Positions 301 to 64,000 of a stretch of DNA of 64,000 nt are shown here, one piece after another (position 1 is the first letter of the stretch; each line of letters starts with the position of its first letter). The stretch is taken from positions 1,408,935 to 1,472,934 of the forward strand of contig OZ242303.1 of the NCBI GenBank assembly GCA_965207945.1. Direction: 5' to 3'. Below the pieces are notes generated by a model. The model searched no databases and was not told the DNA's origin. It worked only from the letters and a program-made list of their open reading frames with translations. A program made the position numbers and the translations under genes. This stretch comes from Gammaproteobacteria bacterium (GTDB lineage: Bacteria; Pseudomonadota; Gammaproteobacteria; CBDBNL01; JAAOII01).

Positions 301-326
301 GATTTAGTTTCTTTAGCTACTTTCAT
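1..326 (-). CDS. N-terminal part of a second GLUG-repeat lipoprotein paralog; the gene continues past the window start
   Basis: Reverse-strand translation from ATG at 324-326 gives MKVAKETKSFSAIFMMAALVVFLTAC-GGGGGGGGG-APTPTPVTKLSKFTVQELNAIPGD..., nearly identical to the N-terminus of the 323..2008 gene. It has a lipobox (L-T-A-C) and no stop before the window edge. Its ATG overlaps the upstream gene's TGA as ATGA. Confidence 0.55.
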   Translation of the reverse strand, partial: MKVAKETKSFSAIFMMAALVVFLTACGGGGGGGGGAPTPTPVTKLSKFTVQELNAIPGDSSVILSWNNPNADIASINISYYNINIPNDPPTIVNSNQIDRNTPNVRQM

Positions 327-2008
327 GGACGCTGGGGGGCTAGCCCGTTGGGGGTGCAGGTGAGGGCTGGGTATTGGTTTGGGTTGCCTAAATTCCAGGC
401 ACGAGAACCATCATCGCACATCTCTCCTTCCCAAGTTTCATAAATACTCCCATCAAATGCCTCTGGCATCTTCAAGTTAACAGTGGTGTTGCCTGCGCTG
501 ACGTCATCCGGATCACGATTACCTATTGTTAGTGTTACATCACTACCACTGGTCTGGTTATCCCAATAAGAGTCGTTAATAGTTATAGTAGTGGCATGAC
601 CAACTAGACCGCCGACATTAATGCCCTCTTTAACATACTCTGCAGCAGCATAAGATGATGTGATCACGACATTATTAATAGAAGCACCAATCAAACCTCC
701 GATACTATTACCAGTGGAATTGATGACAACATCAGCTCCCACATAAGACGAAGTGATCTCTAATTCATCCCCATAGCCAACCAAACCGCCGACATTACTC
801 GTCGCGTTGACATGAGAGTCCTCCACATAAGACAAAGTGACCCCAGCACCGTTATCCGCCAGACCAACCAGACCGCCAACAGAACTACTCCCGATGACAG
901 AACCACCAACTGCATAAGACGAAGTTATGGTGGCACTCCCCCCATTACCAACCAGACCGCCGACTTGATTCGCTCCGCTTAAGACAGTAATATCCATCAC
1001 ATAAGACGAAGTGATGGTGGCACTCTCCCCATAACCAACCAAACCACCGACATAAAAACTAGAAGACGTAACCTTTCCTGATGCAGAACTATTACTAATG
1101 CTTGCACCCTCTGCATAACCAACCAGCAGCCCCGCATTATTATTTTGGGCGCTAATGTTGCCAGAACGGATATGAATATTATGCAGGACGGCAGTAGAGG
1201 AGATTGCGCCAAATAGTCCAGTCGGCTTAGCTTCAGAGTTTATTATAGTAAGATTATTGATTGTCCAACCATTGCCGTCAAAAGTTGCATTGAATGATAG
1301 CTTTCTATTAGTGCAAACCCCCGTAACGCCAAAAGAGCAGCTACCAATTGGTTCCCAGTTGGCATAGCCGTCAAGGGATATATTCTGCGTAAGCTCATAG
1401 CCGTTGCATGTAGTGATGCCGCTCTGACCGCCACAACCACGGGCATCACCAGCGAAAGATACACCATTAAGGTTTGCCCGTACCTGATTTAATTCCTCTG
1501 CATTATGTATCTCTATTAGTCCATTGCCGTTATCATCTACGTCCAGAAAATTAGGTGTGCCATCGCCATCATCATTAGGACCAATAGCCACAGTAGCAAC
1601 TGGAGCCGTTCCTTCTTTGCCTGTATCAGTGCCGTTTAATATCAAACTAACAGTGAAGTTATATGATTGTCCGTTGGTTAGGCCGCTGCTTATCATCTGT
1701 CGCACATTCGGAGTGTTGCGATCTATTTGGTTGCTGTTTACTATCGTGGGCGGATCATTGGGAATGTTTATGTTGTAGTAGCTTATATTAATGCTGGCTA
1801 TATCCGCATTGGGATTATTCCAGCTAAGAGTAACGTTACGGTCGCCAGGAATCGCATTTAGTTCTTGCACTGTAAACTTGGATAATTTGGTTGCGGGGGT
1901 GGGGGTGGGGGCGCCACCACCGCCACCGCCTCCACCACCGCAGGCAGTGAGGAAAACTACAAGGGCAGCCATCATTAAAATCGTATTAAAATCTTTTTGC
2001 ATAATCAA
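323..2008 (-). CDS. Surface lipoprotein with poly-Gly/Pro-Thr linker, Fn3-like N-region and multiple GLUG-motif repeats (GGLVG...ITSSY periodicity)
   Basis: 561-aa ORF. It has a signal peptide with lipobox FLTAC, then a G9 and PTPTP linker, then at least 8 repeats of about 25 aa each containing GGLVG(Y/N)G...ATITSSY, which is typical of GLUG-motif adhesin/IgA-protease-like repeats. Confidence 0.7.
   Translation of the reverse strand: MIMQKDFNTILMMAALVVFLTACGGGGGGGGGAPTPTPATKLSKFTVQELNAIPGDRNVTLSWNNPNADIASINISYYNINIPNDPPTIVNSNQIDRNTPNVRQMISSGLTNGQSYNFTVSLILNGTDTGKEGTAPVATVAIGPNDDGDGTPNFLDVDDNGNGLIEIHNAEELNQVRANLNGVSFAGDARGCGGQSGITTCNGYELTQNISLDGYANWEPIGSCSFGVTGVCTNRKLSFNATFDGNGWTINNLTIINSEAKPTGLFGAISSTAVLHNIHIRSGNISAQNNNAGLLVGYAEGASISNSSASGKVTSSSFYVGGLVGYGESATITSSYVMDITVLSGANQVGGLVGNGGSATITSSYAVGGSVIGSSSVGGLVGLADNGAGVTLSYVEDSHVNATSNVGGLVGYGDELEITSSYVGADVVINSTGNSIGGLIGASINNVVITSSYAAAEYVKEGINVGGLVGHATTITINDSYWDNQTSGSDVTLTIGNRDPDDVSAGNTTVNLKMPEAFDGSIYETWEGEMCDDGSRAWNLGNPNQYPALTCTPNGLAPQRP
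1692..1991. repeat. Copy B of the duplicated 5' gene segment
   Basis: See copy A. Confidence 0.85.
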
Positions 2009-57472: not shown

Positions 57473-57481
57473 CTGTTGACT

Positions 57482-58009
57482 ATGGGTAAAGGTAAATATA
57501 AACATATAATTCTTGCTGGCATGCCAGCAAGCGGGAAAAGTTCTGTAGGGGCTTTGCTGGCTGATAAGCTGGGGCGCGATTTCTATGATACAGATGCTAT
57601 GTTGGAACAAGAACACAATATGGACATATCTGCTATCTTTGCGAGTAAAGGAGAAAGAATATTCCGCAAGTATGAGTCAAATACGTTGCGACGCACCCTA
57701 ACTTATGAGCCAGCTGTTATAGCGTTGGGAGGAGGAGCAGTGTTAGCAAGCGATAACCGCAAAGTTATGCAAGACGGCAATCTAATAATATATCTGCGCG
57801 CTTCAGTTGCAACTTTAGTTAAAAATCTGGGGGATAATAATAATCGTCCACTGATTAAACCTCAGCATAATAAAGAGGAGCAGCTAAGAGGAATGCTTGA
57901 GGTGCGCGAGGATATATATCAAGATTGCGCAGATATTGTGGTTGCAGTTGATGGTATAAGCGCAGAAGATGTTGCAGTCGTTATTGAGAATGAAATTGAA
58001 AAAATATAA
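57482..58009 (+). CDS. aroK: Shikimate kinase
   Basis: Walker A (LAGMPASGKSS), shikimate-binding and LID regions. The start is placed at the ATG of MGKGKYKHIIL. Confidence 0.8.
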   Translation: MGKGKYKHIILAGMPASGKSSVGALLADKLGRDFYDTDAMLEQEHNMDISAIFASKGERIFRKYESNTLRRTLTYEPAVIALGGGAVLASDNRKVMQDGNLIIYLRASVATLVKNLGDNNNRPLIKPQHNKEEQLRGMLEVREDIYQDCADIVVAVDGISAEDVAVVIENEIEKI

Positions 58010-58937: not shown

Positions 58938-59075
58938 TGCTAAGAATTATACCTCTTTGATTGCAAGCTGATTGATTGTGCTTTAATTGGTTGTGCTTTA
59001 ATTGGTTGCAAGAATTGGTTGCAAGCTGATTTATTGCAAACTGGTTGTAAGTTTAGATATTCCATAAATAAGTGG

Positions 59076-59148
59076 CTCCTCGAGCAGGACTCGAACCTGC
59101 GACAAATTGGTTAACAGCCAACTGCTCTACCAACTGAGCTATCGAGGA
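59076..59148 (-). tRNA. tRNA-Asn (anticodon GTT); CCA is encoded at 59073-59075
   Basis: The reverse complement reads TCCTCGATAGCTCAGTTGGTAGAGCAGTTGGCTGTTAACCAATTTGTCGCAGGTTCGAGTCCTGCTCGAGGAGCCA. Confidence 0.88.
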
Positions 59149-59268
59149 ACCTGATAATCATACAATTATTATAAGGATTAATTGTAGAAATTAATGTTAA
59201 ATAAAAAGTTTATTGCAAGTAACGAGCTGATATTAGGTGCCTGATATGAGGCGAGCGCGCCCCTGCCC

Positions 59269-60375
59269 CTATAATCGGTATTGTTGGTATGCCTCTTCAT
59301 ATTGTGGAAACATTATAAACATTGCGCGCTCTAGTTTGTATATTCTATCTACTAACTCATTATTGCTGTAGTAGCTATCATAAGCACCCTTAGTGGAAAC
59401 ATTAAGTGGCGGCATTTCTTTGATGAAGTTTATGTCGTGCGGTGGATAGCCCTGTTGCAGTAAAAAATCATAAGTATCTTGGTTAAGATTAGCCGTCTGC
59501 ATAAAGTTTATGTTATTTAGCTCTTTTTTATATTCGCCACTGTTGAAGTATTCAAGATATTCTTTTTCATTTAAGTTCATTACCTCCAAAGGATTGCGGA
59601 AAAAAAACCACAAGAATAAGAAGGATTGTAGTCCTATATGTTGCGGCGCTTGTGTGGCGGCAGATGACTTAGCAAGCCGAGAAAATTCATCGGAAGATAC
59701 ATCGGAAAATACATCGGAAAATACATCGGAAAATACATCAACAGGATATTGGTATCTGTCTATTCCGCTGTTAGCTGCCATAGCGGCAGTGTAGCTTTTA
59801 TAATAAATTGCTTGCGTTTCCATCATCTGCTTGTCGCAATAACGACTAAAGTTGTTGAAGTCGCCAACCTTATGGCATATTTGAGCGGCATGAATGTTAT
59901 TGGGGCGGCGATTCTTGTAATAGTTGAAACGAGAAATATGCCAGCGGAATGGGTTATTTATACAGCCCAGAATTGGAAGATTAGCAAGCGATGCAGGCAA
60001 CTGAGAACGGCGCGAATGAACTAAAAACATTACTAATGGTTTGGAAGGAGGCAATAGTTTAGTGAAAGATGCTATTTTGAGAAGCAAACGAGATATTATT
60101 TTTCTTTTATAAGGTGATTTGCCAAAGGACGCAAGAGTAAAATCATGTAGCTCGCTGTGGCTGTACTCTGAAGTTGCTAAAGGATAGATTAATCTCTCCA
60201 TCCGTTGTCTTGTAGCGGGAAAGATTTTCATGATAATGGTAATTATCTTGCCTAATGGCGAACCACTTAAAAACATATTAAGATGGGCGCGCAGTAGAAC
60301 ACTGCGCATCCAAGTGCCACCTGTTTTGGGCAGATGAATAAAAATAAATTTGTCTGTAATCCTCATATTACTCAC
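59269..60375 (-). CDS. Sulfotransferase-family protein; paralog 1, with a degenerate 3'-PB motif
   Basis: Has the 5'-PSB motif FIHLPKTGGTW, but the expected RDP...S motif reads INNPFRWHISRFNYY. It has a DVFSDVFSDVFSD repeat. The C-terminus is nearly identical to paralog 2 (VDRIYKLERAMFIMFPQYEE). Confidence 0.6.
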   Translation of the reverse strand: MSNMRITDKFIFIHLPKTGGTWMRSVLLRAHLNMFLSGSPLGKIITIIMKIFPATRQRMERLIYPLATSEYSHSELHDFTLASFGKSPYKRKIISRLLLKIASFTKLLPPSKPLVMFLVHSRRSQLPASLANLPILGCINNPFRWHISRFNYYKNRRPNNIHAAQICHKVGDFNNFSRYCDKQMMETQAIYYKSYTAAMAANSGIDRYQYPVDVFSDVFSDVFSDVSSDEFSRLAKSSAATQAPQHIGLQSFLFLWFFFRNPLEVMNLNEKEYLEYFNSGEYKKELNNINFMQTANLNQDTYDFLLQQGYPPHDINFIKEMPPLNVSTKGAYDSYYSNNELVDRIYKLERAMFIMFPQYEEAYQQYRL

Positions 60376-60457
60376 TAATTATATAGGACTATAAAGATTA
60401 TCAACTAACATACTTGCATAAACAAGCATATAATTCTATTAATCAGTAACTGAAACC

Positions 60458-61525
60458 ATGATAATTACCCGTAGATTTGTTTTTATTCATCTGCCTAAGA
60501 GCGCAGGTATGTGGGCGCATAAAGCCATTGAGCAAGCGCACTTAAATTTGTTTTTTCGTAAGACACCATTAGGGGAAATTCTATTCACTCTTGGCAAGCA
60601 CCTACCCTTTGCCTTTGCTCGCCAGACAATATATAAAATAGCCAAGCGTCTAGTTATTTTTAACTATAGGTATTATGATATCAGTAATCTTTCTATTAAG
60701 AACTATCATGATCCTCTGGGTAGCTCTAAGATAAAATGGTTCATCTTTTTTGCCCAAGGAATGCATCTGTTGGATGTTAAATATGAAACCATGCTGCGCC
60801 TACAACGTCATACCAGGTACGCGCAACTGCCAGAGTTCTTTCAAGAGCTGCCGATATTGGCGGCTATACGCGACCCTTTTAGCTGGCATGTCTCGCGCTA
60901 TAACTATTATAAGGAACAAGAGAGTAAGCAGATTATAGGCAGCGGGAACAGCGCTCAAAGCTTTATTAAAATTTTAGGCGATAATATTGATTTTGACCAA
61001 TACTGCTCAAACAAGATGATGAAATTACAGGATTTCTTTTATCAAGGGTATAACAACTATATCAAAAATCAAAAGGATGGTGAAGAGGTGCCGCAATATC
61101 ATGATGAGCTGATAGATTTTTATAATCCCGCTGATAATAATTGCCCGCCCGCCAAACACTATGGGTTAATGACCTTAAGATTTATTCAGCTATTTTTCAA
61201 ACGTCCGCTTGATGTTGTGAACCTGCCACCAGCTGAGTTTGAACAATACTTTATAGATGGCAAGTATAAGGATAATTTGAAGAATATTACTTTTTTGCAA
61301 CAGGACAAGATAAACCAACAGCTGTATGATTATATGATTAAGCTACGTTATGAAGCGCAAGACCTGCAGCATATTAAGGACTTACCGCCAGAAAATGTGT
61401 CCACAGAGAAGCCCTATAAAAGCTTTTATACTTCTAAGAATATGGTGGATAGAATATATAAACTGGAACGGGCAATTTTTATAATGTTTCCTCAGTATGA
61501 GGAGGTGTATAAACTGTATAAATAG
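60458..61525 (+). CDS. Sulfotransferase-family protein; paralog 2, with canonical motifs
   Basis: Has the 5'-PSB motif FIHLPKSAGMW and an intact 3'-PB motif IRDPFSWHVSRYNYY. It is transcribed divergently from paralog 1. Confidence 0.6.
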   Translation: MIITRRFVFIHLPKSAGMWAHKAIEQAHLNLFFRKTPLGEILFTLGKHLPFAFARQTIYKIAKRLVIFNYRYYDISNLSIKNYHDPLGSSKIKWFIFFAQGMHLLDVKYETMLRLQRHTRYAQLPEFFQELPILAAIRDPFSWHVSRYNYYKEQESKQIIGSGNSAQSFIKILGDNIDFDQYCSNKMMKLQDFFYQGYNNYIKNQKDGEEVPQYHDELIDFYNPADNNCPPAKHYGLMTLRFIQLFFKRPLDVVNLPPAEFEQYFIDGKYKDNLKNITFLQQDKINQQLYDYMIKLRYEAQDLQHIKDLPPENVSTEKPYKSFYTSKNMVDRIYKLERAIFIMFPQYEEVYKLYK

Positions 61526-61540
61526 CTTCTCAGTTTGATA

Positions 61541-64000
61541 TCAATTTGGCACTTGGTTGGTATTTAAGATAAATATTTCAATTTGGGATATTATGCTGTC
61601 GGTAATATCTTTTTCGTTATTTGCCAAGTAATTGGCTTTCCTAAGATTGTACTTGACTATGATTCTTAATTTAGCGCGAGATTTTTCTCTTATGTTCCAG
61701 TCAATTGTTGCATTAGACCTTAAGTCATTTAGTATAACCTTAGCTAACTTTATAAGCTCGTCATTCTTCAGTATGGCTTTATCGCTTTGATTATTGCTTT
61801 GATGATCTATGAGGATAGAATAAAGCGCGTAAACTTCTTCCGATGCCCCAAGGTTATTCCTTTCTTTCTCCCACTCTCTTAATTCCAACGCTAGTTCTAT
61901 TAAGGAACTAATTAATTTATCTTTATCAGAAGAACGTTTTGTCGATTTATTTAGAATTGCAAATAACTTGCTAGCAAACTTATCGCCAGTAACAAAATTA
62001 TTTTTCCCCACATTAATGATTATAAGATGGACTAGCTTGGCAAGAATCCGCAATTCCAGATTAGGACAATCCATCTCATGGATGCGCGCCAGTAGTTCGT
62101 CTGTCAGAAATTGCGGCTGCAGCTGGGCTTCCTTATCTTTATCATAAAACTCTGCTAAAGAACCTTTAACAATTGAATCATCTGCCATGTATAACAGTTC
62201 GTTGGATGATTCGCTATTAATTTCAAGCAACGCTAAGCTTTTTCTTAAGGTATGGAAAAATTCCAGGTTCTTGTTAGCAGCTGCTTTGGTGGATATCACC
62301 ATAGAATGAGCTAAAGAAAAATTGCTAAGTAGACGAGTGAATTTATCAATAGAAAAATATAAGACGTATTCTTGCGCCCGCCTAATAATGGCAAGTCGTT
62401 GTTTTTTATTCGCTTGCGAATATGGTTCATGATTGAAGTCACAGAAAAAACCCAGCATTTTTTTATGTTGCTGTTCCATTGTAGTTATTGCCTCTTGCAT
62501 ATCTTGTATTGGCGCCCCATCGCCTCCCCTTTTTATATAATCTTTGCTCATCTCATTCAAGTAGTCGCCAATGCCCATATAATCAGCTATGAGACCTCCT
62601 GGTTTGTTGATGCGAGCATTATTGACAATAGAAATTGCCTGCATAAGTTGCCTACCCTGCAACGGTTTATCCCAATATAGGACATCTAAACAAGCAGCAT
62701 CAAATCCAGTTAGCCACATATCTCTGACTATCACCAATCTAAGCGAGTCGTTGGAATCTTTAAACCTAGCGCCTAATATCTTTCTTTCCTTTTGAGTAGT
62801 TTGATGTTTTCCCCAAGATGATAGTTCTTCAGTGGAAGGCGCCATTAAAACCTTAATCTTACCCTTGAGTATATTGTCGTCTTGCCATTGGGGGCGTAGT
62901 TTAATGATTTCCTTGTATAGGTCAACTGCGATGCGACGACTCATCGTGGCAATGATTCCCTTTCCTTGAAGAACCGATGAATACTGCTCAAAATGATTAA
63001 CTATATCTTGAGCTATTAATTTTAATCTGCTGGGGTTGGCTAAAAATTTTTCCATTTTTTGCCAACTAACAGTATTAGGATTCTTGCCAGAAAAATCCAC
63101 CTCTGCAATATCTTCCTTTACTCGGTCCTCAGGGGCTATATGAATTTTGGTAAGACGCTTTTCATAATAAACATTAACAATTGACTTGTCGTTGAGCGCT
63201 TGTTTAATATCATATATATCAATGTAGTCGCCAAATAGATTATCTGCCGAAGTATCTGCAGAATCATCATGCGGATAATTGGGGGTGTAGCCAAAACCAA
63301 GGACGGTGGCATTGGGGAGAAAATTCTCTTTTAAGTAATTGGCGAATACTTTGACGTTTTTATCCTTTGTGTTGGCATTGCCAAATCCATAGCGACTGAG
63401 ATGCACTCCATTTACTATGACAAAAATATTGTTCCTGTCAGATAATACTTTGGGCGCAGCTCCCTTCCCTGAATAAAATTTCTGGATGGTGGTGAATATT
63501 ACCCCCCCTCCTGAAGTACTAAGCAGCTTTTTTAGGGATGAATGACTATCCGCCTGAATGGGTGCCTGATGCAATAACTGCTTGCCCCCCACAAATGTTT
63601 GGAATATCTGCTCATCCATATCATTGCGGTCGGAGATAAATACCAAAGTGGGATTTTGCGCTGGCGAATTCCTGATTATCTTGCCAGCATAAAATAGCAT
63701 GGTAAGAGCGTTATCAGTACCGTAAGTGTGGCAAAGAATGCCTCCTTTTTTGTTTCCTGAGCCCTGTAATTGCTGTACTTCTTGAATATTCACCTTGGGA
63801 GAGTATTTGCGCTTATGCGATTTAGCGCCTACTGGCGGAATATAAGAGCCGATATTTATCTCAGATAAGCCATAGTAGCTTTTGTCTACTTCGTCCATTG
63901 CAATATCAGCAGCATTAATAGTTGAAGCAATCGCACGATTAACTCCATAGTATTGATGATAAGTTCCTATGTCTTTTACAAGAATATTTGTCATCATTTG
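61541..64000 (-). CDS. hsdR: Type I restriction enzyme R-subunit (HsdR)-like protein, partial (N-terminus beyond the window); all ATPase catalytic residues are substituted
   Basis: Strong HsdR scaffold: TLVFISDRNDMDEQIF, GGVIFTTIQKF, FGDYIDIYDIKQAL, YYEKRL, GFDAACLDVLYWDKP. But the Walker A GSGKS is replaced by GTDNA (CHTYGTDNALTM), DEAHRSQ by NGVHLSR, TGTP by GYTP, and motif VI QAIxRVNR by QAISIVNNAR. Confidence 0.8.
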   Translation of the reverse strand, partial: QMMTNILVKDIGTYHQYYGVNRAIASTINAADIAMDEVDKSYYGLSEINIGSYIPPVGAKSHKRKYSPKVNIQEVQQLQGSGNKKGGILCHTYGTDNALTMLFYAGKIIRNSPAQNPTLVFISDRNDMDEQIFQTFVGGKQLLHQAPIQADSHSSLKKLLSTSGGGVIFTTIQKFYSGKGAAPKVLSDRNNIFVIVNGVHLSRYGFGNANTKDKNVKVFANYLKENFLPNATVLGFGYTPNYPHDDSADTSADNLFGDYIDIYDIKQALNDKSIVNVYYEKRLTKIHIAPEDRVKEDIAEVDFSGKNPNTVSWQKMEKFLANPSRLKLIAQDIVNHFEQYSSVLQGKGIIATMSRRIAVDLYKEIIKLRPQWQDDNILKGKIKVLMAPSTEELSSWGKHQTTQKERKILGARFKDSNDSLRLVIVRDMWLTGFDAACLDVLYWDKPLQGRQLMQAISIVNNARINKPGGLIADYMGIGDYLNEMSKDYIKRGGDGAPIQDMQEAITTMEQQHKKMLGFFCDFNHEPYSQANKKQRLAIIRRAQEYVLYFSIDKFTRLLSNFSLAHSMVISTKAAANKNLEFFHTLRKSLALLEINSESSNELLYMADDSIVKGSLAEFYDKDKEAQLQPQFLTDELLARIHEMDCPNLELRILAKLVHLIIINVGKNNFVTGDKFASKLFAILNKSTKRSSDKDKLISSLIELALELREWEKERNNLGASEEVYALYSILIDHQSNNQSDKAILKNDELIKLAKVILNDLRSNATIDWNIREKSRAKLRIIVKYNLRKANYLANNEKDITDSIISQIEIFILNTNQVPN

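What the first reader, a model, noticed from the sequence alone, without database searches (positions are those of the whole stretch)
59076..61525. tRNA-Asn-adjacent island with two divergent paralogous sulfotransferase-family genes, one with a mutated PAPS 3'-phosphate motif
Both ORFs carry the sulfotransferase 5'-PSB signature (FIHLPK(T/S)GG(T/M)W) and near-identical C-termini, so they are recent paralogs arranged head-to-head. Paralog 2 keeps the 3'-PB motif RDPFSWHVSRYNYY. Paralog 1 has NNPFRWHISRFNYY, losing the conserved Arg-Asp, and also carries a DVFSDVFSDVFSD repeat. The pair sits between a tRNA-Asn, which is a classic island integration site, and the degenerate hsdR. The placement and the lack of homology to the flanking housekeeping genes suggest horizontally acquired accessory function. 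That function could be sulfation of a glycan, lipid or small molecule, or an effector-like role. I did not compute the local GC content. The acidic C-termini (QYEE...) would be compatible with secretion signals in Legionellales, but that is speculative.
Basis: partly seen in the sequence, partly recalled or inferred. Interest (0 to 1): 0.55.

Follow-up and report, generated by a model that had tools for sequence, protein, structure and literature searches.

The report
Paired divergent sulfotransferase genes, not an island
Two back-to-back genes beside a tRNA-Asn encode very divergent sulfotransferase-like enzymes that standard domain libraries miss, but they are an old, vertically inherited part of this bacterial lineage's chromosome and not a recently acquired island.

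Summary
The two ORFs, the quoted motifs, the DVFS repeat and the tRNA-Asn are all real. The main readings placed on them do not hold.

- **Age of the paralogs.** They share only 34% identity, and each has orthologues at 44-62% identity in other lineages, so they are old.
- **Island claim.** Every available relative carries family genes beside rpoH-aroK-ddl; five of six lineages have both, one only paralog 2. Synonymous divergence (dS), dN/dS, third-codon-position GC (GC3) and codon usage match the housekeeping flanks. There is no integrase and no repeat of the tRNA end. The genes lie on the 5' side of the tRNA.
- **hsdR.** It is cut by the window edge, not shown to be degenerate.
- **Host.** It groups with Oceanospirillales, not Legionellales.
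- **Family membership.** Pfam and NCBIfam give no hit. Profile searches link the genes (E 1e-47) to about 270-aa proteins that match Sulfotransfer_2 and Sulfotransfer_1, and from there to solved sulfotransferase structures (SULTs). The Lys of the PAPS (sulfate-donor) binding loop, the catalytic His and the Ser of the 3'-phosphate-binding helix are all kept.
- **Paralog 1.** It lacks the 3'-phosphate Arg, but an Arg appears four residues later.

They belong to a rare, clade-restricted, multi-copy "long-form" sulfotransferase branch. The substrate is unknown; a glycan or glycolipid is the likeliest guess.

The parts
59073..59148 (-). tRNA-Asn (GTT). Its 3' end faces rpoH and its 5' end faces paralog 1.
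   Evidence: ARAGORN; Rfam tRNA model, 72 bits. No copy of its 3' end occurs elsewhere in the window.
59269..60366 (-). Paralog 1: long-form sulfotransferase-like protein, 365 aa from the ATG at 60366. The ORF listing extends it to a GTG at 60375.
   Evidence: ORF. Orthologues start at MRITDKF. dN/dS is 0.159 against the orthologue in related locus L001. The AF2 model has pLDDT 83.8, and the top 50 PDB fold matches are all sulfotransferases, at weak E-values.
60310..60330 (-). Paralog 1 PAPS-binding loop (5'-PSB), PKTGGTW: canonical.
   Evidence: Translation. It aligns with the PKSGTTW loop of solved SULTs.
60016..60018 (-). Paralog 1 His120, the putative catalytic base.
   Evidence: An invariant column in alignments A2-A4. 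The family column aligns with the KTH histidine of SULT1C3.
59932..59958 (-). Paralog 1 3'-phosphate-binding motif NNPFRWHIS. The Arg at position i is replaced by Asn, an Arg has been gained at i+4, and the helix Ser at i+8 is kept.
59680..59739 (-). In-frame 12-bp tandem repeat encoding (D/E)(V/F)FS x5. Copy number varies between strains.
   Evidence: Tandem Repeats Finder: 4.9 copies, 93% matches. There are 1-5 copies in proteins more than 90% identical, with lengths of 349, 353, 357 and 365 aa. The repeat lies in a loop with pLDDT 52-57.
60367..60457 (.). 91-bp divergent intergenic region, with a promoter-like site at 60405-60434 (+).
   Evidence: Consensus scan only; not evidence of function.
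60458..61525 (+). Paralog 2: long-form sulfotransferase-like protein, 355 aa.
   Evidence: ORF. Its sequence matches database protein P0027, which sits on a 1,863,397-bp contig. dN/dS is 0.132. The AF2 model has pLDDT 83.6 and its best PDB fold matches are sulfotransferases.
60494..60514 (+). Paralog 2 PAPS-binding loop PKSAGMW. It differs from the canonical loop (Gly to Ala, Thr to Met); PK[ST]AGxW is typical of the clade.
60809..60811 (+). Paralog 2 His118, the putative catalytic base.
   Evidence: Invariant in alignment A1; translation.
60869..60895 (+). Paralog 2 3'-phosphate-binding motif RDPFSWHVS (Arg at i, Ser at i+8).
   Evidence: It fits the RxxxDxxxS consensus described in PMC11625862.
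61541..64000 (-). Type I restriction subunit hsdR, C-terminal 818+ codons. The gene continues beyond the window edge. It is a neighbour, not part of the pair.
   Evidence: Pfam domains SWI2_SNF2, T1R_D3-like and T1RH-like_C, and TIGR00348 profile positions 258-669. The preceding codon is CAA. An intact 1077-aa orthologue with hsdS and hsdM is present in L001.

Best explanation
The two ORFs are intact, vertically inherited genes. They encode two old paralogs (34% identity) of a rare 'long-form' branch (350-400 aa) of the PAPS-dependent sulfotransferase superfamily.

The core is the usual sulfotransferase module:
- a strand-loop-helix PAPS-binding loop carrying the catalytic Lys;
- a His that acts as base;
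- a strand-turn-helix 3'-phosphate site carrying the helix Ser.

On top of this core there are about 100 extra residues in four insertions, mostly amphipathic helices plus one variable loop.

Inferred mechanism:
- Both proteins work in the cytoplasm; they have no signal peptide and no transmembrane helix.
- They take the sulfuryl group from PAPS.
- The His deprotonates an acceptor hydroxyl while the loop Lys stabilises the leaving phosphate.
- The acceptor is most likely a sugar of an envelope glycan or glycolipid. The nearest domain-annotated relatives sit in Wzy-type and Wzm/Wzt-type polysaccharide clusters next to other sulfotransferases.
- The two paralogs would sulfate different positions or different acceptors.

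Paralog 1 has lost the Arg that normally binds the 3'-phosphate. It has gained an Arg one helical turn further on, on the same face as the conserved Ser. I read this as relocation of the phosphate-binding side chain, not loss of function.

The pair belongs to the conserved rpoH-aroK-ddl neighbourhood of an uncultured Oceanospirillales-like lineage with genomes of roughly 2 Mb. At least one relative comes from a sponge metagenome. The pair is not a tRNA-borne island.

Shown: the genes, the motifs, the homology chain, the synteny and purifying selection. Inferred: PAPS as donor, the acceptor class, and the role of the relocated Arg.
For: Homology chain:
- The long-form profile matches the short-form profile by hhalign at 100% probability, E 1.1e-47, over 265 columns end to end.
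- 25 of 37 scanned members hit PF03567 and 15 hit PF00685.
- The short-form profile matches solved SULTs at E 1e-7. The mixed profile matches at E 3.8e-8 and aligns PKxGxT, the KTH histidine and RNPxDxxVS.
- AF2 models have pLDDT of about 84, and the best PDB fold matches are almost exclusively sulfotransferases.

Residues kept: Lys, His and Ser are kept in both paralogs.

Selection and inheritance:
- dN/dS is 0.159 and 0.132. dS is 0.22-0.24, against 0.24-0.35 for rpoH, aroK and ddl.
- GC3 and codon distance are average for the window.

Synteny: family genes sit next to rpoH-aroK-ddl in loci L001, L003, L005, L006/L007, L013 and L014.

Acceptor class: short-form relatives lie in polysaccharide clusters.

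Relocated Arg:
- Arg at position i is present in 137 of 143 members with a readable motif.
- Apart from one Arg/Arg member and one spurious match, Arg at i+4 occurs only in the paralog-1 lineages that lack Arg at i. Those lineages are as little as 44% identical to each other.

Localisation: no transmembrane segment was found, and the inserted helices are amphipathic.
Against: - Neither protein hits any Pfam or NCBIfam model at E<=1.
- Neither the proteins nor the long-form profile hit any PDB sulfotransferase by sequence.
- Foldseek E-values are weak (0.01-1) and TM-scores are only 0.2-0.4.
- No sulfate-activation genes (cysDN, cysC) or polysaccharide-export genes lie in the window. The rest of the genome could not be checked.
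- In this lineage the genes are not in a glycan cluster, so the acceptor class is extrapolated from distant relatives.
- The relocated-Arg idea could not be tested on coordinates.
- One paralog-1 orthologue (P0012) has the ordinary RDPFSWH motif. The change may therefore be a reversal, or an old gene-conversion event, rather than evidence of functional coupling between the two positions.
Confidence: 0.6

Rival explanations
1. One reading: the pair is a horizontally acquired accessory island integrated at tRNA-Asn.
For: - The pair is adjacent to tRNA-Asn.
- Overall GC is about 4 points below the window mean.
- The neighbouring type I restriction-modification cassette really is variable among relatives: present in L001, L005 and L006, absent in L003 and L014.
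- The family is confined to one clade, so it must have originated or been acquired once.
Against: - Family genes occupy the same neighbourhood in all six lineages examined (44-62% identity; one lineage keeps only paralog 2).
- dS is equal to that of the flanks.
- GC3 and codon usage are native; the low GC comes from amino-acid composition.
- There is no integrase, and no direct repeat of the tRNA 3' end.
- The genes lie 5' of the tRNA gene.
- In L005 the tRNA is on the far side of rpoH-aroK.
Confidence: 0.04
2. Paralog 1 is not a PAPS-dependent enzyme. It could be a pseudoenzyme or regulatory partner of paralog 2. [quoted passage not shown]
For: - The near-invariant Arg (137 of 143 members) is lost.
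- The two genes are adjacent in five of the six lineages, and their stop and start overlap in L013. This fits proteins that act together.
- A review notes that some sulfotransferases accept APS or pNPS as donor (PMC11625862).
Against: - Paralog 1 has the more canonical PAPS-binding loop of the two (PKTGGTW), and it keeps His120 and Ser148.
- Its dN/dS is 0.159, like that of housekeeping genes.
- An Arg is conserved at i+4 in every orthologue that lacks Arg at i.
- The review treats the loop Lys, the helix Ser and the fold, not this Arg, as the defining features.
Confidence: 0.2
3. The proteins are exported, host-directed effectors of a host-associated bacterium. They would sulfate host molecules using host PAPS.
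For: - The family is restricted to a lineage with small (1.8-2.2 Mb) genomes, and one member comes from a sponge metagenome.
- It is multi-copy: three copies in the chromosome behind L001/L002, and at least four in the assembly behind L015/L016.
- A loop tandem repeat varies in length between strains.
- The genes are not embedded in a glycan cluster.
Against: - There is no signal peptide, and no secretion-system genes occur in the window.
- The C-terminus is a well-folded helix shared with the short-form relatives, some of them cyanobacterial.
- The host is not Legionellales.
- In several lineages the genes are tightly packed after aroK, like ordinary cytoplasmic enzymes.
Confidence: 0.1
4. 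The proteins share the fold but carry out another P-loop chemistry and are not sulfotransferases at all.
For: - No direct hit to a curated domain model.
- Weak fold-search statistics.
- About 100 residues of lineage-specific insertions.
Against: - All three catalytic and nucleotide-binding motifs are kept in register.
- There is an E 1e-47 profile link to proteins that Pfam does recognise as sulfotransferases.
Confidence: 0.06

Closest known systems
Pfam Sulfotransfer_2 (PF03567) short bacterial members, about 250-290 aa, for example the 'sulfotransferase family protein' of Symploca sp. SIO2D2 (P0014)
   Same: End-to-end profile homology (hhalign E 1.1e-47). They share the same N-terminal MxITDxFVFIHxPKTGGT loop, the same His, the same RNPxxxxxS motif and the same C-terminal ...LFPEY helix.
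   Different: The window proteins are about 100 aa longer because of four insertions. They do not reach any Pfam threshold themselves. They are not in polysaccharide clusters. Their motifs are remodelled: paralog 1 has NNPFRWHIS and paralog 2 has PKSAGMW.
Cytosolic sulfotransferases (Sulfotransfer_1, PF00685; for example SULT1C3 2REO and mouse oestrogen sulfotransferase 1AQU)
   Same: The family profile aligns PKxGxTW, the catalytic His of KTH, and the RNPxDxxVS 3'-phosphate motif. They are the best fold matches for both models.
   Different: Sequence identity is about 10-14% and TM-scores are 0.2-0.4. The match covers only the N-terminal half by sequence. The acceptor-binding regions are unrelated.
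Heparan sulfate 2-O- and 6-O-sulfotransferases (3F5F, 4NDZ, 5T03)
   Same: They appear among both the sequence and the fold matches. They are glycan O-sulfotransferases that use a His as base (PMC11625862).
   Different: They are eukaryotic Golgi enzymes. The E-values are weak (0.002-0.5).
Bacterial glycolipid and glycan sulfotransferases NodH, Stf0, KpsS and LpsS
   Same: They provide functional precedent for bacterial sulfation of envelope or signal glycolipids (PMC11625862).
   Different: No detectable sequence relationship was found here. NodH belongs to PF13469 and has an RxG loop, and Stf0 uses Arg in its loop. The window proteins have the PKxGG-type loop.

Membership tests
PAPS-dependent sulfotransferase superfamily (PF00685/PF03567 type) | PAPS-binding loop with a catalytic Lys (or Arg) | tested here: met
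   Paralog 1 has PKTGGTW and paralog 2 has PKSAGMW. Both align to the PKSGTTW loop of SULTs.
PAPS-dependent sulfotransferase superfamily (PF00685/PF03567 type) | Conserved Ser on the 3'-phosphate-binding helix | tested here: met
   Ser148 (paralog 1) and Ser146 (paralog 2) occupy an invariant column. The feature is as defined in PMC11625862.
PAPS-dependent sulfotransferase superfamily (PF00685/PF03567 type) | Arg at the start of the RxxxDxxxS 3'-phosphate motif | tested here: inconclusive
   Paralog 2 meets it (Arg138). Paralog 1 does not (Asn140), but it has an Arg at i+4.
PAPS-dependent sulfotransferase superfamily (PF00685/PF03567 type) | Catalytic base (His or Glu) | tested here: met
   His120 and His118 are invariant. 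The column aligns with the KTH histidine of SULT1C3.
PAPS-dependent sulfotransferase superfamily (PF00685/PF03567 type) | Central beta-sheet flanked by helices (sulfotransferase fold) | tested here: inconclusive
PAPS-dependent sulfotransferase superfamily (PF00685/PF03567 type) | Score above the curated Pfam or NCBIfam threshold | tested here: not met
   No family matched at E<=1 for either protein. The link is transitive only.
PAPS-dependent sulfotransferase superfamily (PF00685/PF03567 type) | PAPS-dependent sulfuryl transfer | not testable with these tools
   This needs a biochemical assay.
tRNA-associated genomic island | Integrase or other mobility gene | tested here: not met
   Only paralog 1, paralog 2 and hsdR lie between the tRNA and the window end. 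L001 continues with hsdS, hsdM, a glpD-like oxidoreductase and ribonucleotide reductase genes.
tRNA-associated genomic island | Direct repeat of the tRNA 3' end at the far boundary | tested here: not met
   No second copy was found with up to 3 mismatches anywhere in the window, and none in the repeat scan.
tRNA-associated genomic island | Insertion on the 3' side of the tRNA gene | tested here: not met
   The tRNA is on the minus strand at 59073-59148, so the pair lies on its 5' side.
tRNA-associated genomic island | Variable presence among related genomes | tested here: not met
   Family genes are present beside rpoH-aroK-ddl in all six lineages sampled. One lineage (L014) keeps only paralog 2.
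tRNA-associated genomic island | Foreign composition or codon usage | tested here: not met
   GC is 0.38-0.39, but GC3 is 0.385 and 0.421 against a mean of 0.40, and codon distance is 0.133 and 0.143 against a mean of 0.134.
Legionellales Dot/Icm-type effector | The organism is Legionellales, and the C-terminal signal is disordered | tested here: not met
   The nearest named relatives of PBP1A are a 'Candidatus Portiera sp.' genome bin (64%) and Marinobacterium, Motiliproteus and Halopseudomonas (about 45%). The C-terminus is helical with pLDDT 90-96 and is conserved across the family.

The most novel reading that the evidence does not exclude
An uncultured, small-genome Oceanospirillales-like lineage, at least partly sponge-associated, has evolved its own multi-copy branch of sulfotransferases (2-4 or more genes per genome of about 2 Mb) with rebuilt nucleotide-binding motifs. 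These enzymes would sulfate a bacterial envelope glycolipid or LPS component, or a host molecule, as a lineage-specific trait for interacting with the host. Paralog 1 would represent a previously undescribed solution in which the 3'-phosphate-binding Arg has moved one helical turn, or a switch to another sulfate donor.
Probability: 0.15. Interest if true: 0.6.

Novelty: new variant of a known kind. Interest (0 to 1): 0.38.

Why it matters
Curated domain libraries miss these proteins completely. Genome annotation would therefore call them hypothetical, and any sulfation capacity of this bacterial lineage would go unseen.

The family is very rare: 11 cluster representatives among 1.84 billion proteins. 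All the members whose genomic context I examined lie in relatives of this lineage. Within it the family is conserved, duplicated and under purifying selection, which suggests a lineage-specific sulfated product.

The Arg at position i and the Arg at i+4 alternate across the family. This offers a simple mutational test of how much freedom the sulfotransferase 3'-phosphate site has.

For the scan itself, the case is a useful caution. Adjacency to a tRNA plus low GC did not indicate an island here.

Tried and rejected
Searches and checks that led nowhere or came back negative:
- Direct Pfam and NCBIfam scans of both proteins gave nothing at E<=1.
- Searches of PDB sequences with single sequences and with the long-form profile gave nothing relevant.
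- I tested for recent gene conversion at the 3'-phosphate motif in L003. Third-position identity there (0.53) is no higher than in other conserved segments, so recent conversion is rejected. An old conversion cannot be excluded.
- I tested for gene conversion at the C-termini in the window. Identical synonymous codons are 20 of 30 in the last ~60 full codons against 35 of 89 elsewhere. This is only a weak hint after testing many windows.
- The transmembrane scan was negative: the highest 19-residue Kyte-Doolittle hydropathy is 1.42.
- Rfam found nothing but the two tRNAs.
- Literature searches by accession found no paper. A search for sulfotransferases in sponge symbionts found nothing relevant.
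- A first bootstrap run timed out and was redone.
- I considered whether the adjacent aroK-like kinase could be a dedicated partner. It scores below all NCBIfam equivalog cut-offs and is tightly packed with paralog 1 in L005, L006 and L013. However, by eye its sequence keeps what I recall as shikimate-kinase signature motifs (DTD, an FRxxE Arg, GGG), and in the window lineage it is on the opposite strand to rpoH and paralog 1. I therefore left it as aroK.
Full report
**1. What is there**

- The window holds tRNA-Asn(GTT) at 59073-59148 on the minus strand.
- Next comes an ORF at 59269-60375(-), which I call paralog 1. Its homologues begin at MRITDKF, so the real start is the ATG at 60366 and the protein is 365 aa.
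- A 91-bp gap follows, then an ORF at 60458-61525(+), paralog 2, of 355 aa.
- An hsdR gene on the minus strand starts 15 bp further on.
- The DVFS repeat is a 12-bp tandem array of 4.9 copies at 59681-59739.

**2. The paralogs are old**

- They are 34% identical (E 3e-76).
- Each has its own orthologues in other lineages. Paralog 2 has relatives at 93, 62, 57 and 47-51% identity. Paralog 1 has relatives at 93, 90, 49 and 44%.
- In neighbour-joining trees the paralog-1 genes form one clade in 500 of 500 bootstraps, separate from the paralog-2 clade and from a third clade.
- The similar C-termini reflect a helix conserved across the whole family, including the short relatives (...LFPEYD).
- There is only a weak excess of identical synonymous codons in the last ~60 full codons: 20 of 30 against 35 of 89 elsewhere.

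**3. Are they sulfotransferases?**

Direct tests fail:
- Pfam and NCBIfam give no match at E<=1.
- Neither the single sequences nor a 14-sequence long-form profile hit any PDB sulfotransferase by sequence.

Indirect evidence is strong:
- A search with paralog 1 reached proteins of 255-278 aa that carry PF03567 or PF00685 (E 1e-19 to 6e-5).
- A profile search of 1.84 billion cluster representatives found 11 long-form proteins (E<1e-30) and about 1000 proteins at E<=0.001, nearly all short forms among the 150 listed.
- Comparing the long-form and short-form profiles gives 100% probability and E 1.1e-47 over 265 columns.
- Of 37 scanned members, 25 hit PF03567 and 15 hit PF00685.
- The short-form profile alone matches solved cytosolic sulfotransferases at E 1e-7.
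- The combined profile matches at E 3.8e-8. It aligns the PKxGxT loop, the KTH histidine and RNPxDxxVS in register.
- AlphaFold models of both proteins are confident (pLDDT 83.6 and 83.8; pTM 0.83 and 0.85).
- Their best Foldseek matches in the PDB are almost exclusively sulfotransferases. The numbers are weak, though: E 0.01-1 and TM-scores 0.2-0.4.

A recent review (PMC11625862) gives the defining features as the loop Lys or Arg, the Ser on the 3'-phosphate helix, and the beta-sheet architecture. The base is a His or a Glu. Both window proteins keep the Lys, the His and the Ser.

I conclude that they belong to the superfamily, in a branch that the curated models do not cover. Compared with the short forms they have about 100 extra residues in four insertions. 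No transmembrane segment is predicted. One inserted helix in paralog 1, RKIISRLLLKIASFTKLL, is the most amphipathic stretch of the protein.

**4. The motif changes**

- Among 143 family members with a readable motif, 137 have Arg at the first position.
- The main exceptions are paralog-1 lineages: the window genus (NNPFRWHIS), L005 (SNPIRWHIS), L006 (SNPLRWHIS), P0041 and P0043.
- All of these carry an Arg four residues later. The rest of the family has D, S, E, T or A at that position.
- Position i+4 lies in the first turn of the helix, which starts at Pro i+2. It is one turn before the conserved Ser at i+8.
- A relocated Arg could therefore plausibly still reach the 3'-phosphate. This is an inference; I could not inspect coordinates.
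- One paralog-1 orthologue, P0012 from the sponge metagenome, has the ordinary RDPFSWHVS motif.
- P0012 groups with the window genus in 345 of 500 bootstraps with the motif columns removed. The swap-carrying sequences form a single group in only 84 of 500.
- This suggests more than one coordinated change, or an old conversion from paralog 2. Recent conversion is not supported.
- Paralog 2's clade has its own signature, PK[ST]AGxW. One member (P0008) even has PETAG, and it comes from a lineage that has lost paralog 1.
- Both window genes are under purifying selection against the 93%-identical relative: dN/dS is 0.159 and 0.132.

**5. Island or core?**

The pair, or at least paralog 2, sits beside rpoH, aroK and ddl in every related contig I could obtain.

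| Locus | Source | Gene order |
|---|---|---|
| L001 | OZ242292.1 | Same order as the window, including tRNA-Asn and an intact hsdR-hsdS-hsdM |
| L003 | Sponge metagenome | RNR genes, oxidoreductase, NYN, paralog 1(-), paralog 2(+), tRNA-Asn, rpoH, aroK, ddl; no hsd genes |
| L005 | ENA assembly ERZ25070259 | tRNA-Asn, rpoH, aroK, paralog 1, paralog 2, hsdR |
| L006/L007 | Logan SRR11301535 / GCA_008847585.1 | ddl, rpoH, aroK, paralog 1, paralog 2, hsdRSM |
| L013 | Logan SRR31358910 | ddl, rpoH, aroK, paralog 1, paralog 2, with stop and start overlapping |
| L014 | Logan SRR8405194 | ddl, rpoH, aroK, paralog 2, then RNR genes |

Other island tests also fail:
- dS for the two genes (0.22-0.24) equals that of rpoH (0.24) and is close to that of aroK and ddl (0.30-0.35).
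- GC is low (0.38-0.39 against 0.43), but GC3 and codon usage are average. The low GC reflects a composition rich in K, N, Y, F and I.
- There is no integrase and no repeat of the tRNA 3' end.
- The genes lie on the 5' side of the tRNA gene.

The variable element in this neighbourhood is the type I restriction cassette.

**6. The neighbours and the organism**

- The hsdR ORF is open up to the last base of the window. The codon before its first ATG is CAA. It matches an intact 1077-aa orthologue over 810 codons at dN/dS 0.155. It is therefore cut by the window edge, not shown to be degenerate.
- Nearly all the large ORFs in the rest of the window are housekeeping genes. They include his genes, accA, priA, isoprenoid genes, PBP1A, rnfC, hldE, tkt, pepA, ilvA, dnaX, lpxC, prfA, hemA, lpxL and trkH. 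No sulfate-activation or secretion genes are among them.
- The window's PBP1A has unnamed relatives at 97% to 55% identity. After those come a genome bin labelled 'Candidatus Portiera sp.' (64%) and Marinobacterium, Motiliproteus, Halopseudomonas and Amphritea at about 45%.
- This points to an uncultured Oceanospirillales-like lineage, not Legionellales.
- Near-identical strains sit on contigs of 1.29-2.24 Mb.

**7. Family behaviour elsewhere**

- The relative's chromosome has a third paralog (P0009) at another locus, beside asd. It also has a 248-aa PF03567 protein next to tRNA-Leu.
- Another member of the lineage has three tandem family genes between queH and a PAP2 phosphatase. A fourth, of paralog-1 type, lies 3 kb away. 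The region also contains bamA, skp, fabZ, lpxA, lpxB, a sugar epimerase and a DegT aminotransferase.
- Short-form relatives lie in polysaccharide clusters with Wzy or Wzm/Wzt, glycosyltransferases and further sulfotransferases.
- This is the basis for proposing a glycan or glycolipid acceptor. It is an extrapolation.

**8. Verdict**

- The island, 'recent paralog', 'degenerate hsdR' and Legionellales readings are not supported.
- What remains is a rare, clade-restricted, multi-copy long-form branch of sulfotransferases. It is invisible to curated models and has an interesting displaced Arg in one paralog.
- This is a new variant of a known kind and of moderate interest.

Noticed in passing
window 59680-59739: The 12-bp repeat in paralog 1 is a copy-number polymorphism. 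Proteins more than 90% identical carry 1-5 (D/E)(V/F)FS units, giving lengths of 349, 353, 357 and 365 aa. The repeat sits in a low-confidence loop. Paralog 2 has a smaller length polymorphism in the equivalent loop (NPADNN against NPADNPTDNN or NPGDNTTDNN).
   Followed up: yes
window 58957-59051: Short direct repeats rich in TTGCAA and AATTGGTTG (periods of 15 and 13 nt) lie between the rpoH start codon and the 3' end of tRNA-Asn. They may be a regulatory repeat region upstream of rpoH.
   Followed up: no
L002 11656-21056 (OZ242292.1, downstream of the third paralog): An array with a 66-bp period and about 142 copies runs to the end of the fetched locus. Each unit is a conserved stretch of about 36 nt (GTTGTGCATTGCGGACAGAGGCAAATCATTTATAAT) plus about 30 variable nt. 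This looks like a very large CRISPR array in a 2-Mb genome. Rfam gives no match.
   Followed up: partly
L015 5751-9149 and L016 8001-9125, 12402-15800: Another member of the lineage has three tandem long-form genes (364, 368 and 382 aa) between queH and a PAP2 phosphatase. A fourth lies 3 kb away. The region is near bamA, skp, fabZ, lpxA and lpxB, a sugar epimerase and a DegT aminotransferase. This may hint at envelope or lipid A chemistry. The two contigs appear to carry the same region.
   Followed up: partly
L014 3395-4504: One lineage has only paralog 2 at the site; paralog 1 has been lost. The remaining protein (P0008) has Glu in place of the catalytic loop Lys (PETAGMW).
   Followed up: partly
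window 57476-58009; L005, L006, L013: The aroK-like kinase next to the pair scores below every NCBIfam shikimate-kinase cut-off (121 bits against 161-204). In three lineages it is packed within a few bases of paralog 1, or overlaps it, as if they were co-transcribed.
   Followed up: partly
window 59269-61525 compared with L003 8889-11077: The two-gene unit is inverted relative to tRNA-Asn and rpoH between the window lineage and the sponge-metagenome lineage. The similar 3' ends of the two genes form inverted repeats that could mediate such a flip. Synonymous-codon identity is slightly raised there.
   Followed up: partly
window 61541-64000; L001 11084-17436: The type I restriction-modification cassette (hsdR, hsdS, hsdM) next to the pair is present in some lineages and absent in others (L003, L014). 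It is the truly variable part of this neighbourhood.
   Followed up: partly
L002/L008 4376-5122: A separate 248-aa Sulfotransfer_2 protein lies directly after a tRNA-Leu(CAA) in the relative's genome. That genome therefore encodes at least four sulfotransferase-like proteins.
   Followed up: no
window 323-2008: A 561-aa protein whose only Pfam match is the GLUG motif sits among otherwise housekeeping genes.
   Followed up: no
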